This document shows positions 850 through 33,979 of a stretch of 43,243 bases of DNA, in pieces (position 1 is the first letter of the stretch; every line of letters starts with the position of its first letter). This DNA comes from Gonapodya sp. JEL0774 (lineage: Eukaryota). The DNA lies in assembly GCA_027604505.1 (NCBI GenBank), contig JADIIX010000162.1, forward strand, positions 1 through 43,243, in the 5' to 3' direction. A program made the translations under genes and the position numbers. The notes under the pieces were generated by a model. It was given only the letters and a program-made list of their open reading frames with translations, did no database searches and was not told the DNA's origin.

Positions 850-926
850 CAGCTTGCATGACCCCCTTCACTTCTTAAAATCAAAAGAATGAAGCCCTGC
901 TTCGCTTTCGCTCAGCAAAACTTCGT
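850..926 (-). repeat. Right terminal inverted repeat
   Basis: CAGCTTGCATGACCCCCTTCACTTC...CTTCGCTTTCGCTCAGCAAAACTTCGT is the reverse complement of 1-77; all 3 differences are transitions at CpG. Confidence 0.9.
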
Positions 927-929
927 CTC

Positions 930-1410
930 TAAGTGGATAGGGCCCTATCGCATCACTGAGAAGGAGAGTGACAACATCTTCCGGCTCAGCCACATCAGCA
1001 CTGAGCACGTGAGTCGAATGTGCCGATACCAGCCATGGATCACGCAATACCTGCCTGATCCACAAAGGATGGCTGAGTTGGCCCAACCTGTTTCACCTGA
1101 GATCGCAGAGAGCGATATCACCCAAAAAGAGCTGGGACCAGATTTCCAGCCAACCTACGTTGTTGAGGCAATCCTTGGCAAGAAGGTAGAACCAGACACG
1201 CAGGGTGAACTTGTCAAGTACCTCATCACGTTTCCTGGGTACATGACCCCTGAGTGGCAGCCTGAAAGCCTCATCTCCGCAGATGAGCTCATTGACGCAT
1301 ACAAACGTAAGCACCCAGCACCCATTGGCAAGATCCTCACCCGCCGTGAGTGGAAGAAGGCATTTGAGAAGCGCCGCAAACTTTTGCAAGTGCAAGGCCT
1401 GCTGGAGTGA
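930..1410 (+). mobile_element. Ty3/Gypsy (chromovirus) pol 3' end: integrase GPY/F region plus chromodomain, interrupted
   Basis: KWIGPYRITEK (GPY/F motif), then YVVEAILGKK...VKYLITFPGYMTPEWQPESLISADELIDAY (chromodomain pattern). The first 14 codons of ORF 889-1410 come from the inverted repeat. Confidence 0.85.
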
Positions 1411-1822: not shown

Positions 1823-2604
1823 TATGCCAGAGGTTTTTTTTTTATTTTTTTCCCTCTGCTATCGCAAATTTTGCGCCTGAGGTCGTCTGCTTCAGAAGAA
1901 ACGTGGGGGGTGTTGTGGTATTGACACCCTGCACATGACCACAGCCTACACATGAAAATAAGGCACAACTAGCACCACATAATAAGAACACTCTTCACAT
2001 CATCTCATACTCCAGGCCTATCACTAGGCCACCATCCCGTCATAGAGGGCTGAGACCGATACGTAGTGACAGCCCCACTACAAGCTGACCCCCCGTTGAA
2101 ATCCTCCACTCGGACCACCACCCAACCATCTTGCGATTCGAGCAATCCGCGAACAACAGGCTAAATTACGCCTAGAAAAATGTAATTCATTAGTACAAAC
2201 TACAAAGTAAAATATCTTCCTTATTTTTGGGAAAAATAGAACTCGCTCGCTGCTTGCAGCTTCGCTGTATCTGCAGGCAGTTTCTTTCTCCCGAGGGGCT
2301 GCAGTTAGTGGAATCCGACTGTAATTCATCCAACGTAAGCAACGTCAGCGACCCTGACACCTGTCTCGTCCCTCCTTGCCGCTGACTTCTCATGATCGAC
2401 AACCCTTGGTTCCTTCCCTCACCAACGGATCTTTCCTCTTGCAGGTCACTCTCGGCTCTCTATTTTTGTTCGTTATATTGTGCACGTGAACAAACTAAAC
2501 CCCCACGCCCTAGTCCCGTTCTTTCCTCCCCCCACATACATCAGCTTTTGACAATCTCATCTGTGACACTTCTGTCAATCTGCCTATCCATCAGCAAGTG
2601 AAAA

Positions 2605-5255
2605 TTACGCCGCTACTCCCCACTTAGCACCATCCTGTGCCAATTGCTGCGCTTGATTGTGCCGGCCAATCTTCACCTGTCGAGGAGAATACAGTCAGTT
2701 ACAAGTACTCTAAACCCATCCCACCACAGAAAGACATCAACCACCATCACGATAACCATCAACTTACAAATACGACCTTGGGCATCCCAGGTTCATTCTT
2801 CAGATTCCACAACTTTTCAAGCAGGTCCCGGTTCTTCACCGGGCTTTTATCTTTCGTATGCCAGCCGTTGGCCTTCCACTCCTGTATCCACTTGTCCAGA
2901 CACTGGCCCAACACATAAAATGGAAGGACCCAAAGGAGAGGTAGGTGGGAGTTTAACAGAAGAAGTATTGTAGATTGATTATCAGGATTGAATTGGGAAG
3001 ATTAACTTTTCAAAGCACTCACATTGATAGCGTAACTGTTGTTTGTGTGCACACGGAGCTCACTGACCCTTGTGCCAGCCATTTCCATGGCTCGGTAGAT
3101 GGCCTTGTAATTTGAATCCAACCTGCTGTGAGATTTTCCACAAAATCACACCAGAATCAGACATTACCTGAAGCGCTGCGCGGTTGTTTTTGTTGTTCGC
3201 CGATTCCGCTGCAGTAGTGACCAAGGGTTCCGACACGTTCCGGGGGTCCTCCTCACCCCACCATACGCCAACTCCAGCCAGGGCACCGGCTCCCCCGTTC
3301 CCAGAGCAGGATCCGTGAATCCACACATTCGCTGGCGCTGCTCGACTTGATGAAGATCCGCGCAGAGAGAGCCGACCCATGTCGACATGAAGCGTGGTGG
3401 CATCGACTGTAACGGACTCGACGTATGGAGGTGGCAGCGCTTGACTTGGGCCATCCGTGTCTACCGTCGAGCTCTGCCTTAAAATCCGACTTGAGCCTGG
3501 AGTCCGCGACGCGTCGAACGCATTTGTCAAAGAGCTTGTCTCCGATGATCCCAGACGCTTCTTCATATCTGCTTGCATCACGCTCACCCCCGCCGCTGAT
3601 GTCGGTTCTATCTCCTCGTGAGTGGGCTTTTCCTCGTCCTCTTTCTTAACGCCTGCCAACCGTTGGAGTTTTGGCAGAAAGGCTGCCTGAATTGACTCGG
3701 ATTCGGCGGGAAGTGACACGCGACTAATCATCATGTTCATCCCCAGAGCATCTGCAACCACAGAATTGGGTGGAGTTGAATCTCCAATCTCTGCTGCAGG
3801 GAGAGGTTGCTGTCCGCCAATCCGTTCCACAAATCTCTTGGAATGGCCGTCGAATCTGACATACACAGATATGTCGCATGATGGGTAATCGAGCACCTCT
3901 GGATCAGGTGCATCCACCTCGTAGATGAGGACAGTGGGGTTGTTGGGCTGATCGATCCGCCGAGCCAATACCGGTTCGTTCAACCCAAATTGGAGATGGC
4001 AGCTCGTCGGGCTAAGTTCTTCTACTCAAACACACGAGGCCTTATGACCAGAGCTTTACAGGATGTGATGGCATGCACTCACGAGGATAAGTGTGCAACA
4101 TGCACTTGACCTTGAGACGCGTTCCAAAACAGAGGTCCACGAGAGGACTACCGGGTTGGACCAACTCGCATGGGTTCTGTAGTGTGTCAAGTGTGTGGCG
4201 CTGTCTTTTGAGCTGACTCAAAATGTACCTACCTCATGCATGGATTTCACGTGTTGGTCAAACTCCCTCTTCCGCGGAAATAAATTCTGCCAACCATGGG
4301 TTTGGTTGAGAAAAACGGGCATTTAGGCGCCATCCTGGTTTTCTGAGTAAGACTCACCTCCTCGGAGCACTTGCTACACATCCAGTGGTGCGAGACTTCG
4401 CAGAAGCTTTTGGTTCCACTCGCATGATTGTTGTAGACATTATTGTCCCATTCGAACCCTGGCCGACTTGACAATTAGCGGGTACTAGGTTGCCGGAGAA
4501 CAGGGAAAGAGAAGCACGTACCGTACAGTTTCAGAAACTCCTTCTTCCACTCCTTCTTGTCATGAGCGACGTTTAGGTGCCCTCGGAGATGCGTTGCTAG
4601 ATCGCACATGGTTGAATTGGTAAGATTGGTGACGGAAAAACCGTCTTTGGGCTGGCAGGTTACACTTTTCCCGCAGAATTTGCAGATATTACTTGTATTC
4701 TGAGGCAGGCGCGATGTGGACCAGTCAAAAGCGAACTCGGAGATCACTTCCTCGATTGAGAACTCTACTTACGTGTGTCGCTGCCATGCCATCACTTTCC
4801 CCGATTATTCCAGCAGACGATAGTGAGTACCGCCATGGCCCTCCCACTGGAGCACCTGATTGCGAATTACCGGGATCCGTCAACAGGGTCACCGACCTAG
4901 GCGTGGCGGAATGGGGGCCAACCCCCTGCGAAGCTTCGTCTTGCAGCGTCCACGAAGAGTCGAGCGAGTTTGCAGGGCTGCTGCCACTGTCCTTGCTGCT
5001 GTCCTGGCCGGAGTTGGCCCAAGGGTCCAGGGGGATGAAAGCACTCAAAGCGTAAACATCTTGGTCTGCCGGCTGGCCGTAGCGCTCAGATTCTTCTCCT
5101 TGGTGAGACCAGTGGAAGTCACCCGGCATGTAGAAATCAGCAGCAAGAGAGGTGGGGGACGTGGCGTGTGGCTGGAAGAACTGGGGGTCGTGAAGGGTTC
5201 TCATGCCAGGGATGGGCAACCCCGCGCTGCTGCTGTTGCCACGGTGGGATTGCAT
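2605..5255 (-). CDS. C2H2 zinc-finger protein with a C-terminal catalytically degenerate RNase H1 domain (about 9 exons)
   Basis: Hand-spliced exons: 5255-4773, 4699-4522, ~4458-4358, 4286-4233, ~4177-4084, ~4021-3168, 3103-3023, 2902-2768, 2676-2605, all GT-AG and in frame. Zinc finger [27 protein letters not shown]. RNase H motifs [84 protein letters not shown]..|[17 protein letters not shown]. Confidence 0.8.
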
Positions 5256-5810: not shown

Positions 5811-5820
5811 NNNNNNNNNN
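5811..5820. other. Assembly gap (10 N); further gaps at 29593-29602 and 30923-30932
   Basis: N runs, each adjacent to long G/C homopolymers and degraded sequence. Confidence 0.95.
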
Positions 5821-7896: not shown

Positions 7897-10527
7897 TCTC
7901 ATTAATTCGGGTGCGTTTTCTCATGCTCATCTTGATTGCTTTGCACCTTGGCCATCAAGCTAAATAATTGTTCATTTTTCCATTTCATGGATGCCACTTG
8001 AAATTGCTTTCTGCCTTTCAAGTGCGATCTCCCCTTCGTATAACTTGGATGGTTAACGACTTTCTCAGTGACCTTCTGTGGTTTTGGTAAAATCGGAGTG
8101 TGACATGTGCTCTATTAGAATCGTTTGTTGCCAATTATGCCTCAAATATATGTTGTGAATGTTTTCGAAATGGATGCGTTCGTTGGTCTCCTACGAAACT
8201 TTGTAGCTCGATTCGGCCCACAATAAGTATATCCGGCTACAAGTTAAATTTATAGAAACAGTAAAACGGCATATGCCAACCCATTCGACCCCTCACTTGC
8301 ATTCTCTCAAAGTTTACACACTGGGACAACGCGGAGATGACGCGCATGAAGCTTTACTTACATTGGACATAATTAATTTTGTGGGACTCCGGCTGATGAC
8401 AACGCCACCAGCTCACTCGCCCCCACATCCCCACCTCCGCATCCAGCCCCCAGCCCCAGCTCCCAGTCCCACGCAAGTCCTCCGGCACTCCCATCCCCAC
8501 TCACCTGCATCAAAACGTCCTCTCTACCTGGTGCGTCTAACGGGCCCTCAAGCTCGTTGAAATTGTGGCCCGGTGGCGCTCAGCTTGGGGACAGGGGCGG
8601 GGGTTGGGGTAGAGAGGCAGGTGAACACGAGCACAGGCGCGGCGGAGGTCAGATTAACACTTGGCACCTGTACAAAGCAAATCCAAAACGAGGGAATCGA
8701 CCCACCTCCCGTGCCTCAATCACTCCGTTCAAACATCCCCAACCACCACCCAACCACCACGCTCCACCAGGCCACGTTTACTGCTCCGTGTTTGTGTCCT
8801 TTTTTGCCCGTTTGCATCCGCGTCCCTGGCCCCCTCGGCTTGTTGCAACTCCCCCTCCACCTCAAAACCCCCCCCTCCCCCCCGCGACGCCGCCTCGAGC
8901 GATCATGGCGGGAGAGACCGTGGTGGAGCCGGCATGGATTGGAAGGGGGCGGGGGGGGTCGAGGTGGAGGGGCGGAAGGAGGGGGAAGGATAGGTGACAG
9001 GGTCGACGTGCACGCGCGTGGCAGGTGCGGGTTTGTTCGAGCGAGGGATGGGAACATCCCGGCCACGGCCACGGCGGCGGAGGCGTCTTCGTTTCAGTTT
9101 CGTTCGGAGACGGGGACTGTGAAGACAGTGACGGGGTCCCATGATGTTCCAGTGAACTCACGTGATTGGCCAGACTCGTGTGTGCCCTGCCTTGACCCCA
9201 TCCTTATCCTATCGGTCCCCGCTTTATTCGATTGATGAGTGGTTAGGTACGGTGGGCCGCATCCTCCTCATGTCCGACTTGGCGGCTCCTGCTAACGTTT
9301 TCACGGACGACTGCAAACACTTGAGTGTGACATTCTTATGAGCCAGGGACGCGGCCAGGGTACGGGAGCGGGTGGGAGAGGGCGAGTGGGCATCGACGGA
9401 GCGGGGGATGTGCGAGCGGCCTTGGAGGTGGACGTAGATGTGGGAGACCCCCCCTCGCGATGTTCACGTTCTTGCACTCTGCGGATTCGGCGGGAGTGAG
9501 CGGAGGTCGAGCCGCTGCTGAGGCGGGTGATTTCTGCTGGAATGTTGAGATGACGAAACATTCCCAACATCCCTAACCCCAAAAGCCATGTGCACTCTGC
9601 TCTTCGAGTGCTCCGTCTACTCAATCGCAGTCTTCCCACTGTGTGAACTGGGATGCTGTGCACACGTCACCGCGATACATCGTCACCACTCACCATCACA
9701 CGGACTCTGGCGTTCAACATTCCACTGATAATTCAGGTGGCGATGAATTGTTGTAATCTTGTCCGAAAATGTGAGCTCCGGTGGCATGATGCCAGAGTGG
9801 CCTGGGAGGATTGGTGATATGCATGACGATCGCATTGAACGATTTGGATGAGGTAGTTACATGAATCAGCGGGAGGCCAGCCGACAATGGTTCTCGGTGA
9901 GAAAACGGATGGATTCGATATGCCCGGTGAAATGAAAGACAGTTGATAATGTCATTATGATGCGTTCAAGGATCTGGTGATGCCTGCTGAACACAACTGC
10001 TGCGTGCCCCGCGTCTGCTACACGCACGTCCTCTCGCTACAATCCTAATTCGGATCCAGAAGCAACTCCAAATATCGAGATTTGCAATATGTTTCACCCA
10101 TACGTAATGACAGATTCAAGACGAAAACTTGGCTGGGGATGAGGTCACGTTCAGTGACATCAAAAATGGATCTCATAAGAGTCGAGGTGTGTTGCCCAAG
10201 TCGTGGGTCTCATTCGTGGGTGCTAGGTCCAGTGGTCCAACATCGCATTCCCCCATTTTCGAACATTCACAAAACGGTCGGGATTGTGTGATTCCATTAT
10301 GTTTGTGATCATGAACCTTTCAAGTTATACACCAAGCTAACTTCGAGAGATTCAGGCTCATCACATCGATGTAAAACTTTGTATACCAGAAGAATCAGTC
10401 AACAGGTATAGTACAAAAAGAGAACGAAACAGATCGTTCAAATCGGTTTTCATGCGTTTTTATGAGAAAACACAGTATATGCACCCATCAGTTCCACCAA
10501 CTACAAGTCCCACCTGCGAATCACAGA

Positions 10528-13500
10528 ATGCCGATGGAATCCGCCCCACGCGGCCACCGCAACGCGAATGAAACTCCGAGGTCCCTTTCCAAGCTGATTG
10601 AACTTCGCGGTCTCGTCCCCGCTCCCGCTCCCACGTCCCGTTCTCGCTCCGAATTGGCGACAACCCGGGACTTGATCTCTTCAATCCGCATTTCTTCGGT
10701 TTTGAAAGGTCACTCGGGCTGTGTCAATACACTCGCTTGGAGTAACTCGGGACTCTTACTGTGCGTATTTCTATCGCAGCGATGGCGGTGGCTGTGGGAT
10801 GAGGTGGAGTTCGAGGATGAACACAATCACAGCAGCATGAAATTTTCATATTTTCCCAAATGGACACAGCTTCTGATCTTCCCACTGGTGCATATAACCT
10901 GTTTTTGCGTGCTTCTCGGTGCGTGGGACGTCCCGGGTCCGCAGTTCTCGTTCCTATTGTTCGTAAACAAATTGGCGATCCCATCTCGCGCGTCTTATTT
11001 TTCTCCCCTCGTTGCCCGAGGGTGTTTGTTGCTCTGGTCGGGACAGACTCTCGCTCCACACTCACCATCACTCTACTCCATCCCAACACACATGCTTTCC
11101 AGCTCTTCTTCCGACGACCACCTCCTCAACATTTACCGTCCCTTCCATCCGTCACCTCTCGTCCTTTCTGCACCCTCTGGACATACCGCGAACGTCTTTT
11201 CGGCCAGGTTCCTCGGGGATGGCTGTGGTGGCGCGGACGAAGCAAAAGTTGTCAGTTGTGCAGCGGACGGGGCCGTTAGGTGAGCGATGGTAGTGGTTAC
11301 TTTTGTGGGCTGGGTGGTCTTCGGTGGGTAGGGAGTGGGTCAGGATCTGGGATGAGTCAGTTTTATGGCTCCACAACAGTTTGGGTTTTGTGTGTCTGGA
11401 GTGGGACTTGCAATCGAAGAGTGGAGAAACTTAGTGTGCCCGGCTCGCTTGCGGGACCGCGGTTGTGTTTCTCCCTTCAAAGACCAACATTTCATTTTCG
11501 TCATCGAGTACCCTCACTCAACGTGGCCTTCAACTCTTACACTTACCGATCACAAAGATACACCGACCTCACACACCACCCGCCCCTCTCGGGATTCTCT
11601 ACCGCCTCACCTCTCGTCCACGTGCGTATGTAGAGGCTTGGGCTGCACAACCGTTGGAGCGTTGGGGACTGTGAAGAGCGAACGACTCCACACGTTTCTA
11701 CCGTCAATCCTGCTTGCTGAGATCCCCCACTTCTTTTCTTTTCCCTTTTCCATCGAACCCTCATGTTCTACCCCACCACGAAATAAAGCCGCCCATAATT
11801 CCCGCATTCAACTGCCACACCGACATGGCGTTCCAGGTTCTTCCCGATCCTATTGCCCCCGCGGTATTTATGAGCTGCAGTGGTGTGTATCGGGGGTTGG
11901 GTTTGTTGGCAGGCGAAAAAATGCGGACTGAACCATCTTAGGAGGTGTCGGTCGCATTTTGATGTTTGTGTTTTGTGTTTTGGTCGCAGTAGCGTGTACT
12001 GCTAGATTGCTGGATCGGTCGCGTTCAGGATTCGCCCGTTGCGTGTCTTCCCTTACAATCAAAACTGCTCCACTTTCTCACCATGTTTTTGTTCCTGCCG
12101 CTCTTCACATTTGCGCCCTGCCTGGTGATGAACCTCGGAAGAGGACGGCACAGTGAACCAGTATGATATCAGGGTACGCACATCGTGTCAGTGCGATGGG
12201 TGAGTTCTGACATCGCCGGGGAAGGCTTTGTTCTTTCGCCACTCGTGGCAGGGATTGGCAGAGGGTTGCCCCTTACACGCACCGCTGTGATGCGTGGTGG
12301 TGCTGTTAAGTACGATTGCAGTGATCGTCTCACATTTCGGATCACCTCCGTCACCCCCCTCTGCACCGCTGCCCTAACAAACTCATTCAAACACCCGATC
12401 AAACTTTGCCTCTGCCCAACTTCCACACCCGGCTCCCTTCCAGCTGCACCCGCCACACCCTCATCGACATCAACGCCGGCGCGGGCCTCAATCGGTCCAA
12501 AACCGACAAGGCACGCAGCATCCTTAAGTCACGATCTGCACCGCCCCATTCTTCGCCCTCCGACGCTGACGCTGACGCAAACACCAACGCCGACGAACCC
12601 CCATCTCGCCGGCGGCCAATCCCATTCGTCCTTCGAAGCCTGTTCCTTCCCCGACGGGCCGTGGCACCCCTAACCAGCGTCACGGCGATCTCCATAAATC
12701 CCGTTCGCCCGTGGCTCTTGGTGGTCGCGGGGGGCGACGGCGGAGTGAGAGTTGTCGATAGGAGGAAGGTCGTTGTCGGGGGTTGGGTTGACGTAGGAGA
12801 GAGGGACGAGGGGAAGGGGAATGGAGTGGAGTATGTGTGGAGAAAAGAGGGCGTCGGAGGGGGCAGGAGCCGGCGGGGGAGACGGGGGCCGGGGACTGGT
12901 GATGGTGGTGTTGCAGAGGAGGAAGAGGAGGATCCGAGATTGATTCGGGCATCCATCACTTCTGCGCAGTGGACAGAGGACGGAAGAGAGATAGTGGTGA
13001 GCTATTCGAGAGGGAATGTGTGCTTGGTGCGGGTGCCTGAAGCCTTTGGGAGCTCTCAACGGGAGAGAGAGTTGACTAGGGCAGAGAGGGAGCACGAGCA
13101 CGAGGAGGAACGCAAATGTTTGAGTGATATCGGCGACAACAACCACACCGACAGCGACGGGGAGTCAGTCAACGCCATTATTGACCGACTGGTGTTCTCC
13201 TCGTCCCCGTCTTCGACCACCTCATCTCCGCACCGTGCGCTCTGGAATCGCACGGCCGCATCGTCTCGTCGACCTTCCCACCTTGTTGTACAACGGGAAC
13301 AGTGGCGTCGAGTGTATGGAAACGAGAACGTGGAGGTGGATTTTGAGGATAGGGATACAGTGGGGGTGTATGGCGGGCACAAAAATGAGAGAACAATGGT
13401 GTGTTTACGGGTTGCTATGGAGGAAGAGGAGGATGCTGGATGTTGGCAGTAGGATTGACAATTTCGTTGTGATTGTCGTTTTCTGTTCCCAGATCAAGGA

Positions 13501-17660: not shown

Positions 17661-20600
17661 ATGCGCGGCACATTGCTGAGGGCAATCCTGGGACTGCTCG
17701 CTCTCTCCATCCTCCAAGTCCAAGTTTTCGCGATTGGGCCAGGAGGGGGGGGTGGAGGTGGTGGAGGCGGAGGTGAGCTCGCGAGACCGGGATACCCGAA
17801 TCGGAAGTCGGATCCAGCATCATTGGCGCATTTCTTCGCTCAGGAATCGTAACGACGACATCCGCGACGTGAGTTCTTTGGCCTTGGCCTGTCATTATTA
17901 TCGCGCCCCCGCCCTGATACCCCACACCTTACCTGCCCCGCACTCCAATTCTTGGCAGCAAAACCTCGAGTACGACATCGCGAACTAGCAGTACGACTTC
18001 TAAAACAGCTACAACAACATCGACGACCACTCAGACGTAAGAGCTTTGTTTGGTAGAGTCAAACCTGTTTGATCGCATTCAACCACGACAATATCTGTTT
18101 GTCGAAATTTCAGGAAAACAACATCGTAAGTTACATATGATTTAAATACCAATTGTCAAACCACAGAAAAGTTTCTGACATAAGTTCACGTTAAGGCTAA
18201 CACAGAAGACAAGCTCAACCTCTACGTAAGTCGTGCCTGACCTGCAATCATCAGTCCCTTGAAAATCAAACAGCTTTTGCTTGGCTCAGCGGCACGCTGA
18301 CGACTACAGCTACAATCACGTAATTATTCTGAATTTGGGTGCGGGCTGGTTGGTGTTCTCACACTTTTTCGCATTGAACTACTGTCACAGCTCCACCCCC
18401 AGTACTTCCACCGAGAAAACCACGACCGAGACCACAACGTCGCAAACGCCCACCACCACCGAGACCCAGACAACGAGCACTGAATCAACCACCTCGGAAA
18501 CACCGACAACTACGGAGAGCACGACTTCCGAGACTCAAACCACGACTACGGAAAGCACCACTTCAGAGACACCAACGACCACCACAGAGAGTACAACCAG
18601 TGAAACGCAGACCACGACCACCGAGAGCACTACCTCGGAAACTCCCACGACCACCACAGAGAGCACAACCAGCGAGACGCAGACCACGACCACCGAGAGC
18701 ACCACCTCGGAAACACCCACGACCACAACCGAAACAACGACTTCCGAGACTCAGACCACCACCACAGAGACCACGACCTCGGAAACACCCACAACCACCA
18801 CAGAGAGCACAACCTCAGAAACACCAACCACGAGCGAAACTGAAACGTCCACCACCGAGACCACGGAGACAGTGTCTTCAACCACTTCAATGACCATTAC
18901 CGAGACCACCCAGACTCCTGAAACGACGAGTTCAGAAACTACTGCAACTATCACGCCCACGACCTCCTCTCAATCGTAAGTGCAGGTGCTCGCAGCATCT
19001 GAAATACGTCATCTGATCTTGGCTGATGCTCACAGAACCAGCTCATCCGCCACCAAGACGAAAACGTTGGTGTTAGATTGACGATTTGCACTCTGTTAGT
19101 TTCCTTCTCACGGATTTCTCCCTACAGCACCTCTCCCACTACCACCAAATCTGTTACGACCACATCTCAGACTAAAACGAAGACGTGAGATATCGTTCAC
19201 CGTTGTAGTTTCTTCCATTTTATTGCGTTCTTACGCCACGAGTACTCCAGCGCAACCTCCACCTCTACAACAAAAACAAAGTCGACGACCACCCTCACGT
19301 GAGAATAACTTTAATATGTGCGATCATACGTTCCTGCGGGTAATTGCTCTCATAATTCTCCAGCACCACTAAAAGCAAGACTTCGACTTCCACCTCGTGA
19401 GTTCTCAGGAAAGCAACATTATACTCTCTCTTCGGAGACAGTCAAACAAGCTTCGCTGGCTCCAACAATGCTATTGGTTTCAATTCCACAGGGCGACCAA
19501 AACGGCGACATCAACTTCCACGAAATCTGCGACATCAACTGCGACCAAATCTGCCACTAAAAGCTCCACCACGACGGGGACAACCACAAAGTCCGCTACT
19601 ACGACTGCAACACCAACGCAGTCTTCTACCACCTCATATACTGCGAGTACCAGCAGCACGTTGACTATCACAGTGTCTAGTACGACGTCGTTTACTGAAA
19701 CGTGAGCCTGTTTGAATTGAAATTCTCCTGTGTTAAAACACAGCGATAACACGATGCGATTTCCTAGAACCACAACCTTTGAAACCCCCACAACGACTTC
19801 AGAAACGCTAACCAGCTCAACTGAGACAACGACTGAAAGTACCACCTCGGAAACGCCCACAACCACCACAGAGAGCACGACTTCCGAGACCCCGACGACA
19901 ACCACCGAAACAACTACATCTGAGACTACGAGCACCGAATCAACAACTTCGGAAACACCAACTACCACTTCTGAAACACAGACTACGACCACTGAGAGTA
20001 CAACCTCGGAGACCCCTACGACCACCACAGACAGCACCACTTCTGAAACGACCTCCACTGAATCAACCACGTCGGAAACCACCGAAACTGCTTCCACCAC
20101 ATCGTCCATGACGATCACGGAGACCACTCAGACGACAGAAACTCAAACGTCGGAAACTGGAACGACTAGCTCGGAAACAGCCACAGCGTGAGGGTTTCAT
20201 CGTTTCGATTGACCTGTGCTTTCTTTACCGAGCTTGTTATGGCACCACAGTGAACTCACAACCACTTCTATTGTCACGATTCCATTCATCCCGGCACTCT
20301 CCACATCGTGAGTAAAGCACCAGAGTGTTCGATCGTTGTCTTCTCTGAACTCACGAAATTAATCGTTCATCAGTTCCACTACCAAGCCCGGCAAGACCTC
20401 TACCACATCCCGAACCAAAACTAGGACGACGACAAAACGAGCAACTACCACAAAACCGAAACCCACAACCACGACAGTGACCACGAAACCCGCAAAAATC
20501 ACCACGACTATAAAGCGGTCGTGTGACACGATCTACGCATCATACACTGCAGGTAGTGCCATAACAGCCACTGACCAGGCTGATTGGGAAGCTTGGTGAG

Positions 20601-21982: not shown

Positions 21983-24661
21983 ATGAGGACCACGAGCGCT
22001 CTGATCGTAGGTCTGGCAGTGGCCTTTATGGCGGTGATCCACCCGTCGAAAGCTGCAGTGGGTTCCGGCACCCAGTGTGTTGTTGACGGGGATTGCTACA
22101 ACCACAACTGTGAGTATCATGTTGTGCACCACAGCAGCACCTGTTTCCATGATGAAATGCCTGTGAATTGAATACTGGTCTTGATGGGCCATTTTCGGTT
22201 GGAAGGTCACCTCTGACGTTTCGAAACCTTAATCCATTCAGGTGACCTGATTCCCAGCGATAACGTCGGAGTATGCTACTGCAGCTCTTCCGGGTCTTGG
22301 TCGTGGAATTACAGTGAGTTCTCTACCTCTTTTTCGCTCATGGATTGTTACAGATTCTTATCGTGTCTTCAACGCCACACAGACATGAGATGCAACTTCG
22401 GAAAAGTTCAATACCGTTCAAACTGCATGGGGACTGGCGGCAACTGGCTCGATGTCTATCCTTCGAGGGCCTGCCCGCAAACGACCACGTGAGTACAGGG
22501 ACCACAGTCGGTGATGTTTCAACGGATTTGGACAAGACCTTGTATTACTGCAGGACACGAACAACGACCAAGACGGCCACCACAACGTACGTTGTGTTTC
22601 CTTTCTCACACTTGGTAGCTGATTTCCTTTTCTGAGTTGGTTCTCCGTGTTCATTCTTTTCCCCCACTCTATAACGTTCCATTTGGAACTTCAGGAAAAC
22701 AACCTCTTCCACGAAATCGTGAGCTTTCTCTTTGAAATACTCCAGAAAAAACTTTGATTCATCTGAGTCGTGCAAATATAGAACTACTACTACTGTTTCG
22801 ACCACCAAAACTCTACCGTCCACAACTACCACAGCAGCACCCAGCACCACAACCAAATCCACAACGAGCGAGACCCCAACCACCACCACGGAGAGCACAA
22901 CTTCCGAAACCCAGACCACAACCACTGAAAGCACAACCTCAGAGACTCCCACTACTACGACAGAGACCACCACTTCTGAGACCCAGACCACGACTACGGA
23001 GAGCACAACTTCTGAGACACCGACCACAACCACGGAGACAACCACTTCTGAGACCCAAACCACCACTACCGAGAGCACGACCTCGGAAACGCCTACGACT
23101 ACGACAGAGACAACCACGAGCGAGACCCAGACCACGACCACCGAAAGCACGACCTCGGAAACACCTACGACTACGACAGAGACCACCACGAGCGAGACGC
23201 AGACCACGACCACCGAAAGCACAACATCGGAAACTCCCACCACGACCACAGAAAGCACAACATCGGAAACTCCCACCACGACCACAGAAAGCACAACGAG
23301 TGAGACTGAGACGACTACCACGGAGAGCACCACAACCGAGACAACCAGTACTGAATCCACCACCTCGGAAACCACTGAGACCCCTTCCACCACATCTTCC
23401 CTGACAATTACCGAGACGACAGGAACCGAAACAACCAGCTCAGAGACTTCCACCGCGTGAGCGACCTTTGCTGTTGTATTCAGCTCTATCTGTTTCTGAT
23501 TTAACCCGTTTATGCGAATTCAGAGAGCCAACGACCGCCCTCATAGTTTCCTCAGCTCTCTCTTCTTCGTGAGGCCGGCCGAGAGCGATTTATTCCTTTA
23601 CTATTGACCTTTTATACTCTCATCATTTCTTTAGTACGACTGCTAAGCCTGGCAAGACGTCCACTGCGACAAAGACGAAAACCTCCACCAAGACAAAAAC
23701 GGCCACAGCTACGAGGACCAAAACGGCAACCACTACAAAGCTGCCGAAGGTTACCACGACTGTGACCACCAAGCCGGCAAAGATCACCACGACTGTTACC
23801 ACCAAGCCGGCAAAGATCACCACGACTGCTACCACCAATCCAGCAAAGATTACAACCACCATCAAACGTACGTGCGACACGATTTATTCGACATTCCTTG
23901 CGGGTGGTGCCATTACAGCGACAGACCAGGCCGATTGGGAAGCTTGGTGAGTTTACGGAAACCGTAAACAATGTAACTTGCAAAGGTGATCCATCTCGGT
24001 TGATTTTTGCTCACATAGGTCTTGCAAAACATGTAAGTTGTTAATCCCAATTGAGTCTCCCTCCCACTAATAGCCGATGGTTTGCTATTCTCAGGGTACC
24101 CGGGTGGCATTGGAAAGCCACGCACATGTGACACCATCTACACTGCGTTCTTGAGTGGTGTCACCATGACCACTCAGGACTACTCAGACTGGGATGCATG
24201 GTGAGTTTGACAATAGGGAATGAGAACCCAGGCACATGCTAACTGTTAGATATCAATCCATTTCAACCCTTCCAGGAACTGCAAAACTTGTGAGTCCGCT
24301 GCCAACTTTGCATGCCCCCGTAATTTTTCGACTTCCTTCGTGGCTCTCTAACACCTTTGTGTATCAGGGTTCCCGCACGGCATCGGCTACGTTCGTAGCT
24401 GTGACACCATTTACAAGGCGTTCAAAGCGGGCACCGCGATGACTGCGCAAGACTCAGCAGATTGGGCGGCGTGGTGAGTGATAAGCAAATCTTCCTGCTG
24501 ATATGCTTCAATTGACCATTTATGTAATCGGTTCATTCGATAATTTGTTGATTCATACAGGAACTGTAAAACTTGTAAGTAAATTTGGCGATGGAGAAAG
24601 GGTTATCATCTCTTATTCTTTGCGTTTTTGTTCAGGGTTCCCCACCGGTATTGGCAAGTAA
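21983..24661 (+). CDS. Secreted Thr-rich mucin-like protein B with an 8-Cys N-terminal head and three C-terminal 40-aa Cys/Trp repeats
   Basis: Signal peptide MRTTSALIVGLAVAFMAVIHPSKA, a Cys-rich head over three exons, an ET-repeat exon (~22781-23456), TTKPAKITTT repeats, and three C-terminal units with the same intron positions as gene A. Stop TAA at 24659-24661. Confidence 0.85.
22860..23380 (+). repeat. Coding minisatellite, 12-aa ET-type repeat (gene B)
   Basis: Visible in ORF 22732-23460, with alternating ETP/ETQ units. Confidence 0.9.
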
Positions 24662-28683: not shown

Positions 28684-31600
28684 GCAGGCAGCGGAGGGCG
28701 CGCAGTGGGCAACGAGAGGAACTTCTGACGTTCTTGTCCATCGACTTTCTTTCATTCCTGCTTCTTTATTTCGGAGGGTATGGCTTCTTTGTTATTGTTT
28801 GCTTTGCCTTTACATTTAGTCTCCTAGGGGGTGGGCATCGGGGTTGTGGGTTTGGACAGAGGATTTGAGCTGTGTTCAGGGGATATGGGGCGAGAGGGCT
28901 GAGGTTTGATGAACGATCGTCGGCTCGGAGGGCGAGCGCGGACTGGACGATCGTTAAGCTCGGAGGGCGAGCGGGGGACCTTCCCTGCCAGATGCAGGAC
29001 GCTTGCACATTGGAACAAGGAGTGCCGATGATATCACTTGATCAGCACTCTGAATACCACCCGGCACACCACTACCAGAATTTCGTCGTACTCCGCAACT
29101 GCGCTGTGCTCTCTTTCCTGGCCGCGGGGAATTTCGTGTCGCCATCCATCCTCTCCCCCGCCCCGCCAACCCCTCCGTCCTCCTCCCACCTCACAACCTC
29201 AAGCAGGGAGTGATCTTCTTTGGCTTCGCATCTATCAAGCATGCACCGATATCACGGACTCGTCAACATCCTGCACCACGTGCCCCGTCAAACGTATTCC
29301 GCTCTCACACCTACTCCAACTCCGATCCCACACCACTCCCCGATGATCCCAATCCTACTCCCACTTCCACTCCGTTGACGATCTGATTCTGGCTCGCTCC
29401 ACACTTGATCTCGGTCGGCATCCCCACGCCATACATCTGGTCCCAGTTTCTGCAGAGCCGCCACAGCAATCGGCCAAGGACGCCATCTCGCTCCGCCGCC
29501 TCAGCGCCATCGGCACCTCAACTCTCAACCGAGAAATTTCCCTCAACAACCAGGCCTGCATCAGGGCGGGGGGGGGGGGGGGGGGGGGGGGGNNNNNNNN
29601 NNCCGCCGCCTCCGGGCCATGGGCACCACAACCCTCAACCGTTAAATTCCCCCCCCCCCCCCGGCCCCCCCCCCCCCCCCCCCCCCCCTCCTTCATCCTC
29701 CAACGTGTCCCTAACCTCATCCGCAACCACGCGCTCCGAATTGTCGGCTTCGACTTCTTCTGCCGATTCTCGTACTTTCCGCCCCCACCACCCACACACA
29801 CCGCCCCGCCCCCCCCCACATCCCAACAGAAACGCACCTCAACCGAAAATATCTATGCGCGCGAGCTCCATTTGATTCGACAACTGCGCCAGATACCTTG
29901 TCCTGTCACGCCTCGAACAGATAGTCAGGAAAGGCCTCATCAGACTCCTAGTGGGTCGACATCATTGATCTCGGAGTCACACGGCAATTGATTGCAGTCC
30001 AGTCGAATGGGCAAAGTTGTTGATTAAGCTCACATCACTCTCTGTACACCTTACCCGACGTTCCGTGTGCTTGTCAGGAACCCTCGCGGGTCCCGATTCC
30101 ATCATGCCCCAAAGGATGCTGCGTGCAGCGTCTCCTCTTTGGGATTGCGTGGATCGGCGGTGGGTTTTGAGTGAGAGAAAGGTATGAGTGCCGTGCCAAT
30201 AGGTTGGAAGTTGTTGATCCCGCTCACCGGACTCTCCGTCAATTATAACCGACCCATAGTGAAGACGACGCCTACATCGAATCCCCATCCTCATCCCGTG
30301 CCGAGAGACGGCTCTTTATCCACGACATGTAGTGGAGAGGTGCGATTCATTATGTTGACGGTGAGAATTACCGTGCTGTCATGGAGTCTCCGCGTGGTAT
30401 CTTAAACTCACCTTAGATGCGATTTGCGCGGCCTCACTTCAGTTGACAGAACTCCGAGCCGCAACTCCCCTCACGTTCACCGTCTATCGACGACTGCTCG
30501 CTTGTGAGAAGGTCGGTGGCATCCAGTTTGAGCTCCGCTACACACCCCATCCTGGGCGTGCATCCAGCACGTTTGGGATGGGCCCATGTGTGGTTTGTGC
30601 TCCTGCGAACCCTGGCCCGGGCGTACATCCAGTACGTTTAGGACAGGATAATGCGCGGACAAGACTGGCTGATCATTCGACCCGAGATACCGGAGAATGG
30701 GACATCACGTGACAATACGATACAGTACCGTGACGGCGGATTGGTGACGTAGTAGCCGGGACGGGAGGAAGAGCAGTTCGCTCCGTGTAGGGGGTCGGAT
30801 AGGAGGAGGAGGGTGTACTCCGTGATGGGTTTATGGAGGGATGCGTTGGAGTGATGTCGGGAGTGGGGAGAGGTTGGGGGGGGGGGGGGGGGGGGGTTTT
30901 AAACAGACAAAAAAATATATTAANNNNNNNNNNCCCCCCCCCCCCCCCCACCGCAAGGACTAAGTATATTATTAATCTGGACTAATCTGTTCACTTCAAG
31001 TGGGAGCTACACCGGGTTTTATGGTCTCTTGCATGTGTATAACAATGTTTTTGCTAAATTTATGATATTGGCAACGGTTGAGTGTTCTCCGCGTCGGAAG
31101 TGCCAGGAGGGAATGTAACCAAAAAATACATCACAATTCACAAACACGAAGATCGTCAAGTCGCACAGCTATGACCCTGACGATGGACGGCGACAAAGGG
31201 GAGATTCTAATAGGAGATTCCATGTATTACATAAAGCTGGTTTGGTATGTAGCAGTGCTCTCGTGAGTGTGCTATGGATGAGGGATGATCGGCGGGGGAG
31301 ACACCACTACGCTGTTCGTGGAAACCAGCACAGTAATTCTCTCCACCAAATGTAAATACGACGCTCGGTGTTCCTCGTTGGGCAAAACGTCGTTATCTGA
31401 CAGTTGTGAGTAGATAGCAGAAGAACATCAGAAACCCAGGAGGAAGAGCGGCAACCTGAAGGAGCCGGCGGTTGAACCTTCTCCGACATTCTCGCCAAGA
31501 ATGTTAATGGCAGGAGCAGCAAAATAACAACAGCAAATTCAGCAAAAATTTGCAAATCTCCACCACCGGCACCATAGCGTACTGGCCAGAGTTTGTCGCC

Positions 31601-31994: not shown

Positions 31995-33979
31995 ATGGCC
32001 GACGAAGCGGATATAAACCCATGCCCTGCTTCAATTGATGTGATGACATATGAGTACACACCTGCAGGTGAATTGGATTTTCTTGTCGGAAGTCCCTTCC
32101 GCTGAGTCCCTCAGGAAACCGCTTTCCAGATAATGCATTTCTGTTGGTCTGTGCCGCATTGGTCATGATTATGACTCCTGGTGAGTGTCCGCCGCCGAGC
32201 TCGACGTTGGTAACTCGCTTGCGCGGTCCTCAACCTTGCCCTTAACGTGGTCGATACTTCCAAAGGTCTTGGCTTCTACTACAGTGGAATGGCACGCTCC
32301 AAGAACGCCCTTACTCTTATAATGCTGTGTTTTATTTCCTATGCTGTTGTAACGGTCCAAGTGAGACTCTGGTTCAATTTTCAATGTTATGTAACGTCAT
32401 TAACTCCCGAGGACTCCTCATCAGTGGTTCCTTTTTGGATTCTCCCTCACATTTTCGGATACGGGAAGTTTTTTCTGGGGCGACTGTGCTCACTGCGTGT
32501 TCCGGAACGTCGGCCAGAATCTCTTGAAGAACGCACCAACAATTCCCATCATCACCTTCCAATTCTACCAGCTCATGTTTGCCATCATTACTCCAGCTCT
32601 TATTTTTGGATCTGCGGCTGAGCGTGTTCGGATCCTGCCGTCCGTGGTGTTTGTTTTTGTGTGGTCAACTGTTGTGTATTGTAGGTGTGACTTGCGTCGC
32701 GGTTTTGCGCATTACTTTTGACCCATTCATCTCCTTGTGCCAGCACCAATTGCATACTGGGCCTGGTCTGCGAACGGGTGGCTCAACATGATTGGTTACT
32801 TAGACTTTGCCGGTGGTACACCGGTTCACGCATCATCTGGTTTTGCTGGTTTGGCGCTGGCACTTGCTCTAGGGCGCAGAAAACACACCGAGGATTTCAA
32901 GGCCTCATCAATCGCAAACGTATTTCTTGGCACTGGTGAGTTCTTGACCATCTACTCGAAACCCGTTCTTCAAAACACCGATTGCCGATCATGGTGCTGC
33001 TCTCAACTCTCAGCCCTCCTCTGGTTTGGATGGTTTGGTTTCAACGGCGGATCTGAGCTCGCTTCCAATGCTCGTTCCGCCAATGCGATGACCGTCACCA
33101 ACATATCTGCGGCTTTCGGAGGCCTCGTGTGGATGCTCATGGATTACATCACTCTTCGGAAAATGTCCGGTCTTGGCTTCTGCTCTGGTGTAGTTGCCGG
33201 ACTAGTGGGTATCACCCCAGCCTCTGGATTTGTATCGCCTGCATCTGCGTTCGCGATCGGGGGTATCGTTTCGGCTGTCTGCAACACCATGGTGCGACTG
33301 AAGGCTTACTACATGTACGGTGAGTGGCCCAGACTCAGGACAGGAATGAGCAAAGTTCAATCAATCATATCAGTCGCATAATTTTTTGCTGCTCATTCAG
33401 ACGACACACTCGATTCCTTCAATGTCCATGGGATAGGAGGCGTGACTGGTGACATTCTCACAGGCGTGTTCGCCCAGAGGTCCATCAAAGCAATGAGTGG
33501 GTGACTTTTCTGTATTCTCTCCCGCTAACGCTTGGATCACAAATTTCCAACCTCCGTTCAGATTTGTACCCCAACATTGGTTCTGTGAACCAAGCGTGCC
33601 TGGATACCCTTCCTGCCCTCGGCTGGCTCGACGGCAACTGGATCCAAGTAGCAAAACAACTAGCTGGAGCGTCGGCAGGGGCTGCGTGGTCTTTTTTGGT
33701 GACGTATGCTATTGTGTCCATCATGCAAAAGGTGACAATTATAAGTTGTCAACTTCATTCTGCTCGAACTGCTCATTTTGTTGTGTCCCTTGTCAGATCC
33801 CGGGCCTGCAACTTCGGGTCAGTCAATGGACGGAAGTTCTCGGCTCCGACCAGGGAGAGATGGGCGAAATGTCGTACGATTATGTGGAATCTCTCAGCCA
33901 CGTTCCGGATCGGAGCAAATCACCACCTGGGTCCGCCGTTGTCCACAATGCTTCTATACACCGGCTACCGAGCAGATAG
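31995..33979 (+). CDS. amt: Ammonium transporter, Amt/Mep family
   Basis: Spliced MADEADINPCP..A|DNAFLLVCAALVMIMTP|GLGFYYSGMARSKNA, FQFYQLMFAIITPALIFGSAAERVR, LDFAGGTPVHASSG, LLWFGWFGFNGGS, AGLVGITPASGFV, DDTLDSFNVHGIGG. Both pore histidines are present. Confidence 0.96.

What the first reader, a model, noticed from the sequence alone, without database searches (positions are those of the whole stretch)
2605..3330. RNase H1 domain with all four catalytic carboxylates replaced but fold and splicing intact
Seen: four exons rebuild a full RNase H1 domain with no stops or frameshifts, keeping Gx[24 protein letters not shown] and PVKNRDL. The DEDD positions (E. coli D10/E48/D70/D134; human D145/E186/D210/D274) read H (3317-3315), A (3176-3174), N (3043-3041) and Q (2649-2647), and the GH loop is shortened. 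Known: these residues bind the catalytic metals, and engineered D210N RNase H1 binds RNA:DNA hybrids without cutting. Inference: targeted loss of all four sites with the substrate-contacting Asn/Trp/basic motifs retained fits a selected pseudoenzyme, a natural hybrid or R-loop binder, better than random decay.
Basis: partly seen in the sequence, partly recalled or inferred. Interest (0 to 1): 0.85.

Follow-up and report, generated by a model that had tools for sequence, protein, structure and literature searches.

The report
Conserved dead RNase H1 paralogue in Gonapodya
A gene of the water mould-like fungus Gonapodya encodes an RNase H1-type domain in which all four metal-binding acidic residues are replaced, as in its relative G. 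prolifera, so it is predicted to be a maintained non-cutting protein that likely still binds nucleic acid.

Summary
On the minus strand, 2605-4609 is the NCBI model HDU93_002302 of Gonapodya sp. JEL0774 (493 aa, 8 exons). Its last four exons encode a type-1 RNase H domain (Pfam E 5.5e-15; human RNase H1 E 1.4e-15). The predicted fold is confident and superposes on human RNase H1 (TM 0.82-0.87).

New here: G. prolifera JEL478 has an orthologue (KXS09423.1) with H/A/N/V at the same positions and the same 6-residue shortening of the His loop. The loss therefore predates their split.

Both proteins keep 22-23 of 26 other family-conserved positions. Their mutual identity rises from 19% in variable columns to 89% in conserved ones (trend p 2.6e-10). 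This indicates purifying selection on the fold and on family-conserved positions that, from recall, include the substrate-contacting residues, not decay.

The hybrid-binding domain is absent. A disordered linker carries a conserved LPPPY motif.

Binding of RNA:DNA hybrids is inferred, not shown. No transcripts, dN/dS or genome-wide search for an intact RNase H1 could be obtained. Degenerate RNase H1 domains turned up in other eukaryotes, so this is a new variant rather than a new kind. Interest is moderate.

The parts
2605..4609 (-). Annotated CDS of HDU93_002302 (P0001, 493 aa), 8 exons, stop codon at 2607-2605
   Evidence: Exact match of the rebuilt CDS to P0001; all 7 introns are GT..AG
2608..3338 (-). 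RNase H1-type domain, aa 342-493, spread over exons 5 (3' part), 6, 7 and 8
   Evidence: Pfam PF00075 E 5.5e-15. Human RNase H1 E 1.4e-15. AF2 block pLDDT 84-98 over aa 341-490. Foldseek TM 0.82-0.87 to 2qkk/2qk9
3315..3317 (-). H349 (CAC) at the column of the first catalytic Asp (human D145)
   Evidence: Also H in P0002
3174..3176 (-). A396 (GCG) at the column of the catalytic Glu (human E186)
   Evidence: Also A in P0002
3041..3043 (-). N419 (AAC) at the column of the second catalytic Asp (human D210)
   Evidence: Also N in P0002
2647..2649 (-). Q480 (CAG) at the column of the last catalytic Asp (human D274)
   Evidence: V in P0002
2638..2667 (-). Shortened His loop, [10 protein letters not shown]. 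It is 6 residues shorter than the family profile and lacks the conserved G-N
   Evidence: P0002 has the same length here, so the deletion is shared
2861..2890 (-). [10 protein letters not shown], the basic-protrusion helix with the three family-conserved Trp (W430, W434, W439)
3104..3167 (-). Intron 5 (64 nt, GTAATG..TACAAG), phase 0, after aa 398
2903..3022 (-). Intron 6 (120 nt, GTGAGT..GGCCAG), phase 0, after aa 425. It has an in-frame TAA near its start, so retention would truncate the protein
2677..2767 (-). Intron 7 (91 nt, GTAAGT..CGACAG), phase 0, after aa 470
3339..3740 (-). Predicted disordered linker, aa 208-341. It is partly conserved with P0002: AESES (3707-3693), LPPPY (3437-3423), M..LSL (3380-3363)
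   Evidence: Alignment A1. pLDDT is mostly <50. Coordinates
4083..4609 (-). Annotated exons 1-4, aa 1-112, with a C-x2-C...H-x4-H zinc-finger-like stretch (aa 55-80, 4384-4236). No family match
   Evidence: Whether they belong to the same transcript is untested
4610..5255 (-). Possible, inferred 5' extension: an ATG-started open exon 5255-4773 (161 codons), a 73-nt GT..AG intron 4772-4700, then in-frame sequence 4699-4610 that completes a second C-x2-C...H-x3-H stretch cut by the annotated start
   Evidence: Inference from the sequence only

Best explanation
The gene encodes an RNase H1-type domain whose four metal-binding carboxylates are all replaced (H349, A396, N419, Q480). Its Gonapodya prolifera orthologue shares this state, so the domain is predicted to be a catalytically dead pseudo-RNase H1 that is kept by selection and likely binds nucleic acid, most plausibly RNA:DNA hybrids, without cutting it.

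Shown:
- homology, exon structure and residue identities;
- a confidently predicted RNase H fold in both proteins;
- the shared ancestral loss, together with a shared 6-residue loop deletion;
- site-specific conservation that mirrors that of intact RNase H1.

Inferred:
- No RNase H activity. In type-1 RNases H the carboxylates hold the two catalytic metal ions, and a single D210N change inactivates the human enzyme.
- The retained family-conserved Asn and Trp positions and the basic protrusion still dock a duplex.

Speculative: the disordered N-terminal part, with a conserved LPPPY motif and zinc-finger-like stretches in JEL0774, gives the protein its partners or targeting in place of the missing hybrid-binding domain.

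My odds: a real, conserved, catalytically dead RNase H1 paralogue, about 0.85. That its job is hybrid or R-loop binding, about 0.4.
For: Homology and fold:
- Pfam RNase_H 56.2 bits, E 5.5e-15.
- Human RNase H1 chains E 1.4e-15 over aa 346-488.
- AF2 domain pLDDT in 10-residue blocks of 84-98 for aa 341-490 in P0001 and 92-98 for aa 141-280 in P0002.
- Foldseek top 10 hits are all human RNase H1, with target-normalised TM 0.82-0.87 and rmsd 1.7-2.2 over 150-155 columns.

Catalytic columns:
- HANHQ in P0001 and HAN-V in P0002, against DEDHD in 159 of 203 domains.

Orthologue:
- P0002 = KXS09423.1 of G. prolifera JEL478.
- It is 45% identical overall and 52% in the domain.
- The two form a clade with support 99 and 98.

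Constraint:
- 22/26 and 23/26 non-catalytic conserved columns are kept while 4/4 carboxylates are lost.
- Mutual identity is 7/36, 13/31, 31/40 and 24/27 across rising conservation bins (trend p 2.6e-10).
- Tip branches are 0.42-0.89 against medians of 0.55-0.87.
- In a substitution-only neutral simulation, only 1.8-5.1% of 2000 runs stayed stop-free at 49-61% identity.

Other:
- Both domains stay basic, with net charge +4 and +9 against a median of +3 in 182 domains.
- Literature, passages read: a single active-site change inactivates human RNase H1, and its catalytic domain prefers hybrids 25-30-fold over dsRNA (PMC8266564).
- The basic protrusion forms a Trp-lined DNA channel (PMC4132731).
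Against: - No binding or activity data exist.
- No transcript evidence could be obtained.
- No dN/dS could be computed, because the G. prolifera DNA could not be fetched.
- The hybrid-binding domain PF01693 is not detected in P0001 at E<=1 and is not among P0002's precomputed domains. The main affinity module of eukaryotic RNase H1 is therefore missing.
- In P0001 two further conserved columns next to the active site differ (T to K391, S to N420), and the G-N of the His loop is deleted.
- H476 of P0001 is not matched in P0002, which has T when the two are read without gaps.
- AF2 was fed an alignment of intact RNases H, so a good fold prediction is expected for any clear homologue.
- The family was found in only two species.
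- Both gene models are computational predictions.
Confidence: 0.55

Rival explanations
1. A maintained pseudoenzyme whose role is not nucleic-acid binding. The dead RNase H fold would serve as a protein-interaction or scaffold module, for instance an adaptor recruited through the conserved LPPPY (PY-type) motif.
For: - LPPPY, AESES and M..LSL are conserved in an otherwise divergent, predicted disordered linker.
- No hybrid-binding domain was detected.
- There is precedent for an inactive RNase H-like domain with a structural or regulatory role in Prp8 (PMC5603734, passages).
- That PPxY motifs bind WW domains is recalled knowledge, not tested here.
Against: - The best-kept columns are N355, N375, N392, W430, W434, W439, V447 and N449, which, from recall, are the ones that face the substrate in intact enzymes.
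- The domain stays basic.
- A pure scaffold would not need these features.
Confidence: 0.25
2. A decaying duplicate or a gene-prediction artefact with no function.
For: - No transcript evidence was available. No run was listed.
- Both models are computational.
- The 5' end of the JEL0774 model is doubtful.
- The P0002 model starts where P0001 is at aa ~201.
- The family was seen in two species only.
Against: - The frame is intact across 4 exons with canonical splice sites.
- Independent annotation in a second species gives the same domain, the same three replacements and the same loop deletion.
- Identity is concentrated in family-conserved columns (p 2.6e-10).
- Stop-free survival is unlikely under neutrality, at 1.8-5.1%.
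- Branch lengths are ordinary.
Confidence: 0.07
3. Still a nuclease, using a non-canonical active site (His, Asn, Gln, or residues recruited from elsewhere).
For: - H349 and N419 are conserved in both species.
- PDB holds E. coli RNase HI D134H and D134N variants (1kvb, 1kvc). From recall only, these keep part of the activity.
Against: - Three of the four ligands, including the Asp/Glu/Asp core, are non-acidic in both species.
- The fourth position differs (Q against V), and H476 is not shared.
- No acidic residue lies within the local motifs [33 protein letters not shown] and [10 protein letters not shown] in the sequence.
Confidence: 0.04

Closest known systems
Eukaryotic RNase H1 catalytic domain (human RNASEH1, PDB 2qk9/2qkb/2qkk)
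   Same: - Same fold and clear sequence homology (E 1.4e-15; TM 0.82-0.87; 30-33% identity).
- Basic protrusion with its three Trp, and the conserved Asn and Gly positions, are retained.
   Different: - All four DEDD carboxylates are replaced.
- The His loop is 6 residues shorter.
- There is no N-terminal hybrid-binding domain (PF01693).
- A long disordered N-terminal region stands in its place.
Engineered catalytically dead RNase H1 (D210N, 'dRNH1'), used as an R-loop probe
   Same: An RNase H1 domain that cannot cut. In the human protein one such change leaves hybrid binding intact (PMC8266564, passages; PDB titles).
   Different: - The natural protein lacks four ligands, not one.
- dRNH1 keeps the hybrid-binding domain, and this protein does not.
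- Binding by the Gonapodya protein is untested.
Bacillus subtilis RNase HI homologue without RNase H activity
   Same: A natural type-1 RNase H homologue reported to lack activity (PMC9719913, passage citing Chon et al. 2004).
   Different: - It is bacterial, and its function is unknown.
- I did not compare sequences.
- The gene name YpdQ is recalled and was not found in the paper (0 occurrences).
Degenerate extra RNase H1 domains in multi-domain eukaryotic proteins seen here
   Same: RNase H1-type domains with lost carboxylates:
- Euglena gracilis EP00667_P001799: 4 domains, none intact.
- Ditylenchus destructor KAI1709599.1: 3 short domain matches, none with all four carboxylates.
- Terramyces sp. 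JEL0728 KAJ3274725.1 and Diutina catenulata CAN3369021.1: one degenerate copy in front of an intact one.
   Different: - Those are tandem arrays.
- P0001 and P0002 are the only single-domain proteins among the non-canonical rows in which D, E and D are all replaced.
- They do not cluster with the other degenerate domains.
Prp8 RNase H-like domain
   Same: An RNase H fold kept without enzymatic activity for a nucleic-acid-related, non-catalytic role (PMC5603734, passages).
   Different: It is a distant superfamily member of retroelement origin, embedded in a giant spliceosomal protein. It is not a recent derivative of cellular RNase H1.

Membership tests
Type-1 RNase H (Pfam PF00075 RNase_H; homology) | Sequence match above the family's curated threshold | tested here: met
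   56.2 bits against a cut-off of 25.8, E 5.5e-15, aa 346-461
Type-1 RNase H (fold) | Five-stranded sheet with helices A-E, including the basic protrusion | tested here: met
   AF2 elements E344-353, E361-367, E376-379, H392-410, E413-418, H421-436, H450-461, E467-472, H477-492. TM 0.82-0.87 to human RNase H1. This is a prediction, not a solved structure
Type-1 RNase H (enzyme) | DEDD metal-binding carboxylates | tested here: not met
   H349/A396/N419/Q480. 159 of 203 aligned domains have D/E/D/H/D
Type-1 RNase H (enzyme) | Conserved His on the flexible loop before helix E | tested here: inconclusive
   H476 aligns to it in P0001, but the loop is 6 residues shorter and P0002 has no His there
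Type-1 RNase H (enzyme) | [quoted passage not shown] | not testable with these tools
   Needs a biochemical assay
Eukaryotic RNase H1 (full-length architecture) | N-terminal hybrid-binding domain (PF01693) joined by a linker to the catalytic domain | tested here: not met
   No PF01693 in P0001 at E<=1. P0002's precomputed domains list only PF00075. Intact relatives such as P0153 carry both
Pseudoenzyme (homologue of an enzyme lacking catalytic residues, kept by selection) | Catalytic residues lost while the fold is kept | tested here: met
Pseudoenzyme | Evidence of purifying selection after the loss | tested here: met
   Protein-level only: shared loss in two species, conservation gradient p 2.6e-10, ordinary branch lengths, open frame. 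Codon-level dN/dS was not possible
Non-cutting RNA:DNA hybrid binder (works like dRNH1) | Specific binding of RNA:DNA hybrids | not testable with these tools
   Only indirect: N355, N392, W430, W434, W439 and N449 are retained, and the net charge is positive. The roles of the human equivalents (N151, N182, W221, W225, N240) are recalled from the 2007 human RNase H1 structure paper, which I did not read here

The most novel reading that the evidence does not exclude
Gonapodya carries a natural 'dRNH1': an RNase H1 paralogue that lost all four metal ligands and its hybrid-binding domain. It now acts as a non-destructive reader or protector of RNA:DNA hybrids. Its disordered arm, with a PY motif and zinc-finger-like stretches, brings in other factors. 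This would be the first natural R-loop reader derived directly from RNase H1.
Probability: 0.25. Interest if true: 0.75.

Novelty: new variant of a known kind. Interest (0 to 1): 0.5.

Why it matters
Catalytically dead RNase H1 is the field's standard engineered tool for detecting R-loops. A version made and kept by evolution would show that cells can use the same trick. It could offer a compact hybrid-binding module that needs no hybrid-binding domain, and it would point to a regulatory layer that competes with or complements R-loop removal.

There is also a practical point for annotation. One RNase H1 phylogeny I read kept only sequences with the DEDD residues (10.1101/662080, passage). Under that kind of filter such paralogues, and the degenerate tandem domains seen here in Euglena, nematodes, yeasts and chytrids, go undescribed, while databases label them 'ribonuclease H'.

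Tried and rejected
- Whole-genome search for a second, intact RNase H1: no genome is held for this window. The question stays open.
- The closest intact relative found is P0154 (DEDHD, 58% identical to the P0002 domain). It is an unnamed record, and it did not group with the dead pair.
- Sequencing runs: none was listed for 2400-4700, so there is no RNA evidence either way.
- Word-indexed protein searches were insensitive. One search found only the protein itself. One search found P0001, P0002 and two weak hits. One search found 20 proteins.
- The exhaustive search gave 6985 hits at E<=0.001. I saw only the best 150.
- N-terminal region: no Pfam family for the upstream frames or for P0001 aa 1-340 at E<=1, apart from two sub-threshold chance-level matches. 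The best Atlas score was 0.87, below the 0.9 line. The zinc-finger reading is therefore a pattern seen by eye, not a family assignment.
- Other copies in the window: none by tblastn.
- Earlier findings of this scan: nothing.
- Retroelement origin of the domain was considered and rejected. The best matches are cellular RNase H1 with the basic protrusion, the gene has introns, and it has an orthologue.
- Literature searches for a described natural dead RNase H1 paralogue found none in fungi. For C. elegans I saw only the reference to Arudchandran et al. 2002, not its text.
- The G. prolifera genome paper (PMC4494064, term search only) had no occurrence of 'transcriptome' or 'RNA-Seq'.
A 3-D check for substitute acidic residues could not be made.
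Full report
WHAT IS THERE

The window is nuclear DNA of the zoosporic fungus Gonapodya sp. JEL0774 (Monoblepharidomycetes). No whole genome is held for it.

The finding lies in the 3' part of a minus-strand gene. Its deposited product is 'hypothetical protein HDU93_002302' (P0001, 493 aa). I rebuilt the CDS from the window as 8 exons: 4609-4522, 4458-4358, 4286-4233, 4176-4083, 4024-3168, 3103-3023, 2902-2768 and 2676-2605. It translates exactly to P0001, and all seven introns are GT..AG.

The three introns inside the domain are 64, 120 and 91 nt long. The 120-nt intron carries an in-frame TAA a few codons in. The domain therefore exists only in the spliced form.

CHECK OF THE OBSERVATION

The domain is a type-1 RNase H beyond reasonable doubt:
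- Pfam RNase_H scores 56.2 bits against a cut-off of 25.8 (E 5.5e-15).
- The best solved relatives are human RNase H1 chains (E 1.4e-15 over aa 346-488).

Three independent alignments place H349, A396, N419 and Q480 on the D/E/D/D columns:
- the HMMER alignment to human RNase H1;
- a 94-sequence MAFFT alignment in which D349, E396, D419 and D480 are listed as nearly invariant columns that P0001 does not share;
- a profile alignment of 203 domains.

The quoted motifs are present.

Two corrections are minor. The domain starts near 3338, and it is the C-terminal third of a larger protein.

FOLD

AlphaFold2 with a 94-row alignment gives 10-residue block pLDDT of 84-98 across aa 341-490, with the canonical order of strands and helices. 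Most of the first ~340 residues are below 50.

In Foldseek against the PDB, the ten best hits are all human RNase H1 catalytic-domain chains. Target-normalised TM is 0.82-0.87 and rmsd is 1.7-2.2 over 150-155 columns.

Caveat: the alignment was made of intact RNases H, so a good model is expected for any clear homologue.

THE KEY NEW EVIDENCE: AN ORTHOLOGUE WITH THE SAME DEAD SITE

An exhaustive HMMER search of 1.84 billion representatives found 6985 proteins at E<=0.001. Only 6 were at E<=1e-30. The best by far is P0002 (E 1e-45). This is KXS09423.1, 'ribonuclease H-like protein' of Gonapodya prolifera JEL478.

P0002 aligns with P0001 from aa ~201 to the end. Identity is 45% overall and 52% in the domain.

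- P0002 reads H, A, N and V at the four catalytic columns.
- Read without gaps against P0001, it has the same shortened loop.
- The two domains form a clade with support 99 (FastTree, 183 domains) and 98 (IQ-TREE quick, 44 domains).
- Their position among eukaryotic RNase H1 domains is unresolved.

The loss of the carboxylates and the loop deletion therefore predate the split of the two species.

IS IT MAINTAINED OR DECAYING?

I could not get the G. prolifera DNA, so no dN/dS. Four protein-level tests point to constraint.

(i) Thirty profile columns are >=85% conserved in the 159 domains with an intact DEDHD pattern.
- P0001 has changed 4 of 4 carboxylates but only 4 of the other 26 (Fisher p 0.0026).
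- P0002 has changed 4 of 4 and 3 of 26 (p 0.0013).

(ii) Since both proteins descend from one ancestor, every column was identical at their split. Today their identity by canonical conservation is:

| Conservation of the column in intact domains | Identical in P0001 and P0002 |
|---|---|
| <30% | 7/36 |
| 30-50% | 13/31 |
| 50-85% | 31/40 |
| >=85% | 24/27 |

The trend has p 2.6e-10. The sites that intact RNase H1 needs are the ones that were kept.

(iii) Tip branches are 0.42-0.89 changes per column, against medians of 0.55-0.87 in the same trees. The stem is 0.56-0.6, long but not extreme.

(iv) In a crude substitution-only simulation starting from the window's own codons, only 1.8-5.1% of 2000 runs remained stop-free at 49-61% identity.

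The three shared replacements (H, A, N) have themselves not changed.

WHAT ELSE THE PROTEIN HAS AND LACKS

- There is no hybrid-binding domain: PF01693 is absent at E<=1 in P0001 and absent from P0002's precomputed domains. Intact relatives such as P0153 have it.
- The region before the domain is predicted disordered in both proteins. It shares short islands: AESES, LPPPY and M..LSL (coordinates).
- Both domains stay basic, with net charge +4 and +9 against a median of +3 in 182 domains.
- In JEL0774 the annotated N-terminus (aa 1-112) has a C-x2-C...H-x4-H stretch. No family matches it.
- The annotated start cuts a second such stretch. An in-frame acceptor at 4700, a GTAAGT donor at 4772 and an ATG-started open exon 5255-4773 would add about 190 residues. 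This is inference only.
- An assembly gap lies at 5811-5820.

MECHANISM

Established knowledge: the carboxylates of type-1 RNases H hold the two catalytic metal ions. One change (D210N) inactivates the human enzyme without abolishing hybrid binding. The catalytic domain itself prefers hybrids 25-30-fold over dsRNA (PMC8266564, passages; titles of 2qk9, 2qkb and 2qkk). DNA-strand recognition uses a phosphate-binding pocket and a Trp-lined channel at the basic protrusion (PMC4132731 and PMC8387031, passages).

The Gonapodya proteins keep the three Trp of the protrusion and the conserved Asn and Gly positions. They have no acidic residue at any ligand position.

I therefore predict no RNase H activity (high confidence) and retained docking on a duplex, most plausibly RNA:DNA (moderate confidence, about 0.4).

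Points against a strong binder:
- the missing hybrid-binding domain;
- K391 for the conserved Thr and N420 for the conserved Ser in JEL0774;
- the deleted loop.

The exact roles of the human residues (N151, N182, Q183, R179/T181/N240, W221/W225) are recalled from the 2007 structure paper, which I did not read here.

RIVALS

- A non-nucleic-acid scaffold or adaptor role through the PY-type motif: 0.25.
- A decaying or mispredicted gene: 0.07.
- A nuclease with an unconventional site: 0.04.

COMPARISON WITH WHAT IS KNOWN

By homology this is a member of the type-1 RNase H family. By function it fails the defining DEDD test and the eukaryotic HBD architecture.

Natural inactive relatives are on record for a B. 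subtilis RNase HI homologue (PMC9719913, passage) and, at superfamily level, Prp8 (PMC5603734).

Most are extra copies in tandem multi-domain proteins:
- Euglena gracilis: 4 degenerate domains.
- Ditylenchus destructor: 3 short domain matches, none with all four carboxylates.
- Terramyces sp. and Diutina catenulata: one degenerate copy plus one intact copy.

P0001 and P0002 are the only single-domain proteins among the non-canonical rows with D, E and D all replaced.

Four literature searches found no description of a natural dead RNase H1 paralogue in fungi. One plant study states that it kept only sequences with DEDD (10.1101/662080), which shows how such proteins escape notice.

VERDICT

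The 'hybrid or R-loop binder' part remains a reasonable, untested inference.

It is a new variant of a known kind, restricted so far to two Gonapodya species and known only from predicted gene models. Interest is 0.5.

Noticed in passing
window 4610-5255 (-): The annotated start codon (4609) sits inside a C-x2-C...H-x3-H stretch. An in-frame GT..AG intron (4772-4700) and an ATG-started open exon (5255-4773, 161 codons, Ser/Pro/Gly-rich) would extend the protein by about 190 residues. The deposited model may be 5'-truncated.
   Followed up: partly
window 3423-3437 (-), aa 309-313: An LPPPY (PY-type) motif is conserved between the JEL0774 and G. prolifera proteins within an otherwise divergent, predicted disordered linker. 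AESES (3693-3707) and M..LSL (3363-3380) are conserved too.
   Followed up: partly
proteins P0008, P0089, P0009, P0014, P0004, P0010, P0016, P0027, P0074: Many eukaryotic proteins carry tandem RNase H1-type domains in which some or all copies have lost the catalytic carboxylates. Examples are Euglena gracilis (4 domains, none intact), Ditylenchus destructor (3 short domain matches, none with all four carboxylates), and Terramyces and Diutina (one degenerate copy plus one intact). I found no description of this recurring pattern in the papers searched.
   Followed up: partly
window 18451-18831, 19840-20079, 22860-23342, 23753-23850: Tandem repeats of 36/72/144 nt (and 33 nt), rich in ACC/GAG, lie inside long open frames. 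They would encode Thr/Glu/Ser-rich mucin-like repeats. They explain the strong GC and AT skew of 18-24 kb.
   Followed up: no
window 862-1410 (+): An open frame has a sub-threshold Chromo domain match (E 1.2e-4, 22.4 bits against a cut-off of 25.1) about 1.2 kb beyond the gene's 3' end. It could be a chromodomain protein or a retroelement remnant.
   Followed up: no
window 32722-33381 (+), 40235-43093 (+), 10375-11283 (+): Ordinary neighbours: an ammonium transporter exon (PF00909, E 1.8e-44), an RTP1_C1 protein (E 1.8e-22), and a weak WD40 match.
   Followed up: no
window 5811-5820, 29593-29602, 30924-30933: Three runs of 10 N (assembly gaps). The first lies about 550 bases upstream of the possible 5' exon of this gene.
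   Followed up: no
window 4025-4082 (-): Intron 4 of the deposited model ends in GAG (TTTGAG), a weak acceptor. The long exon 5 frame is open from 4025, so the exon 4/5 junction deserves transcript confirmation.
   Followed up: no
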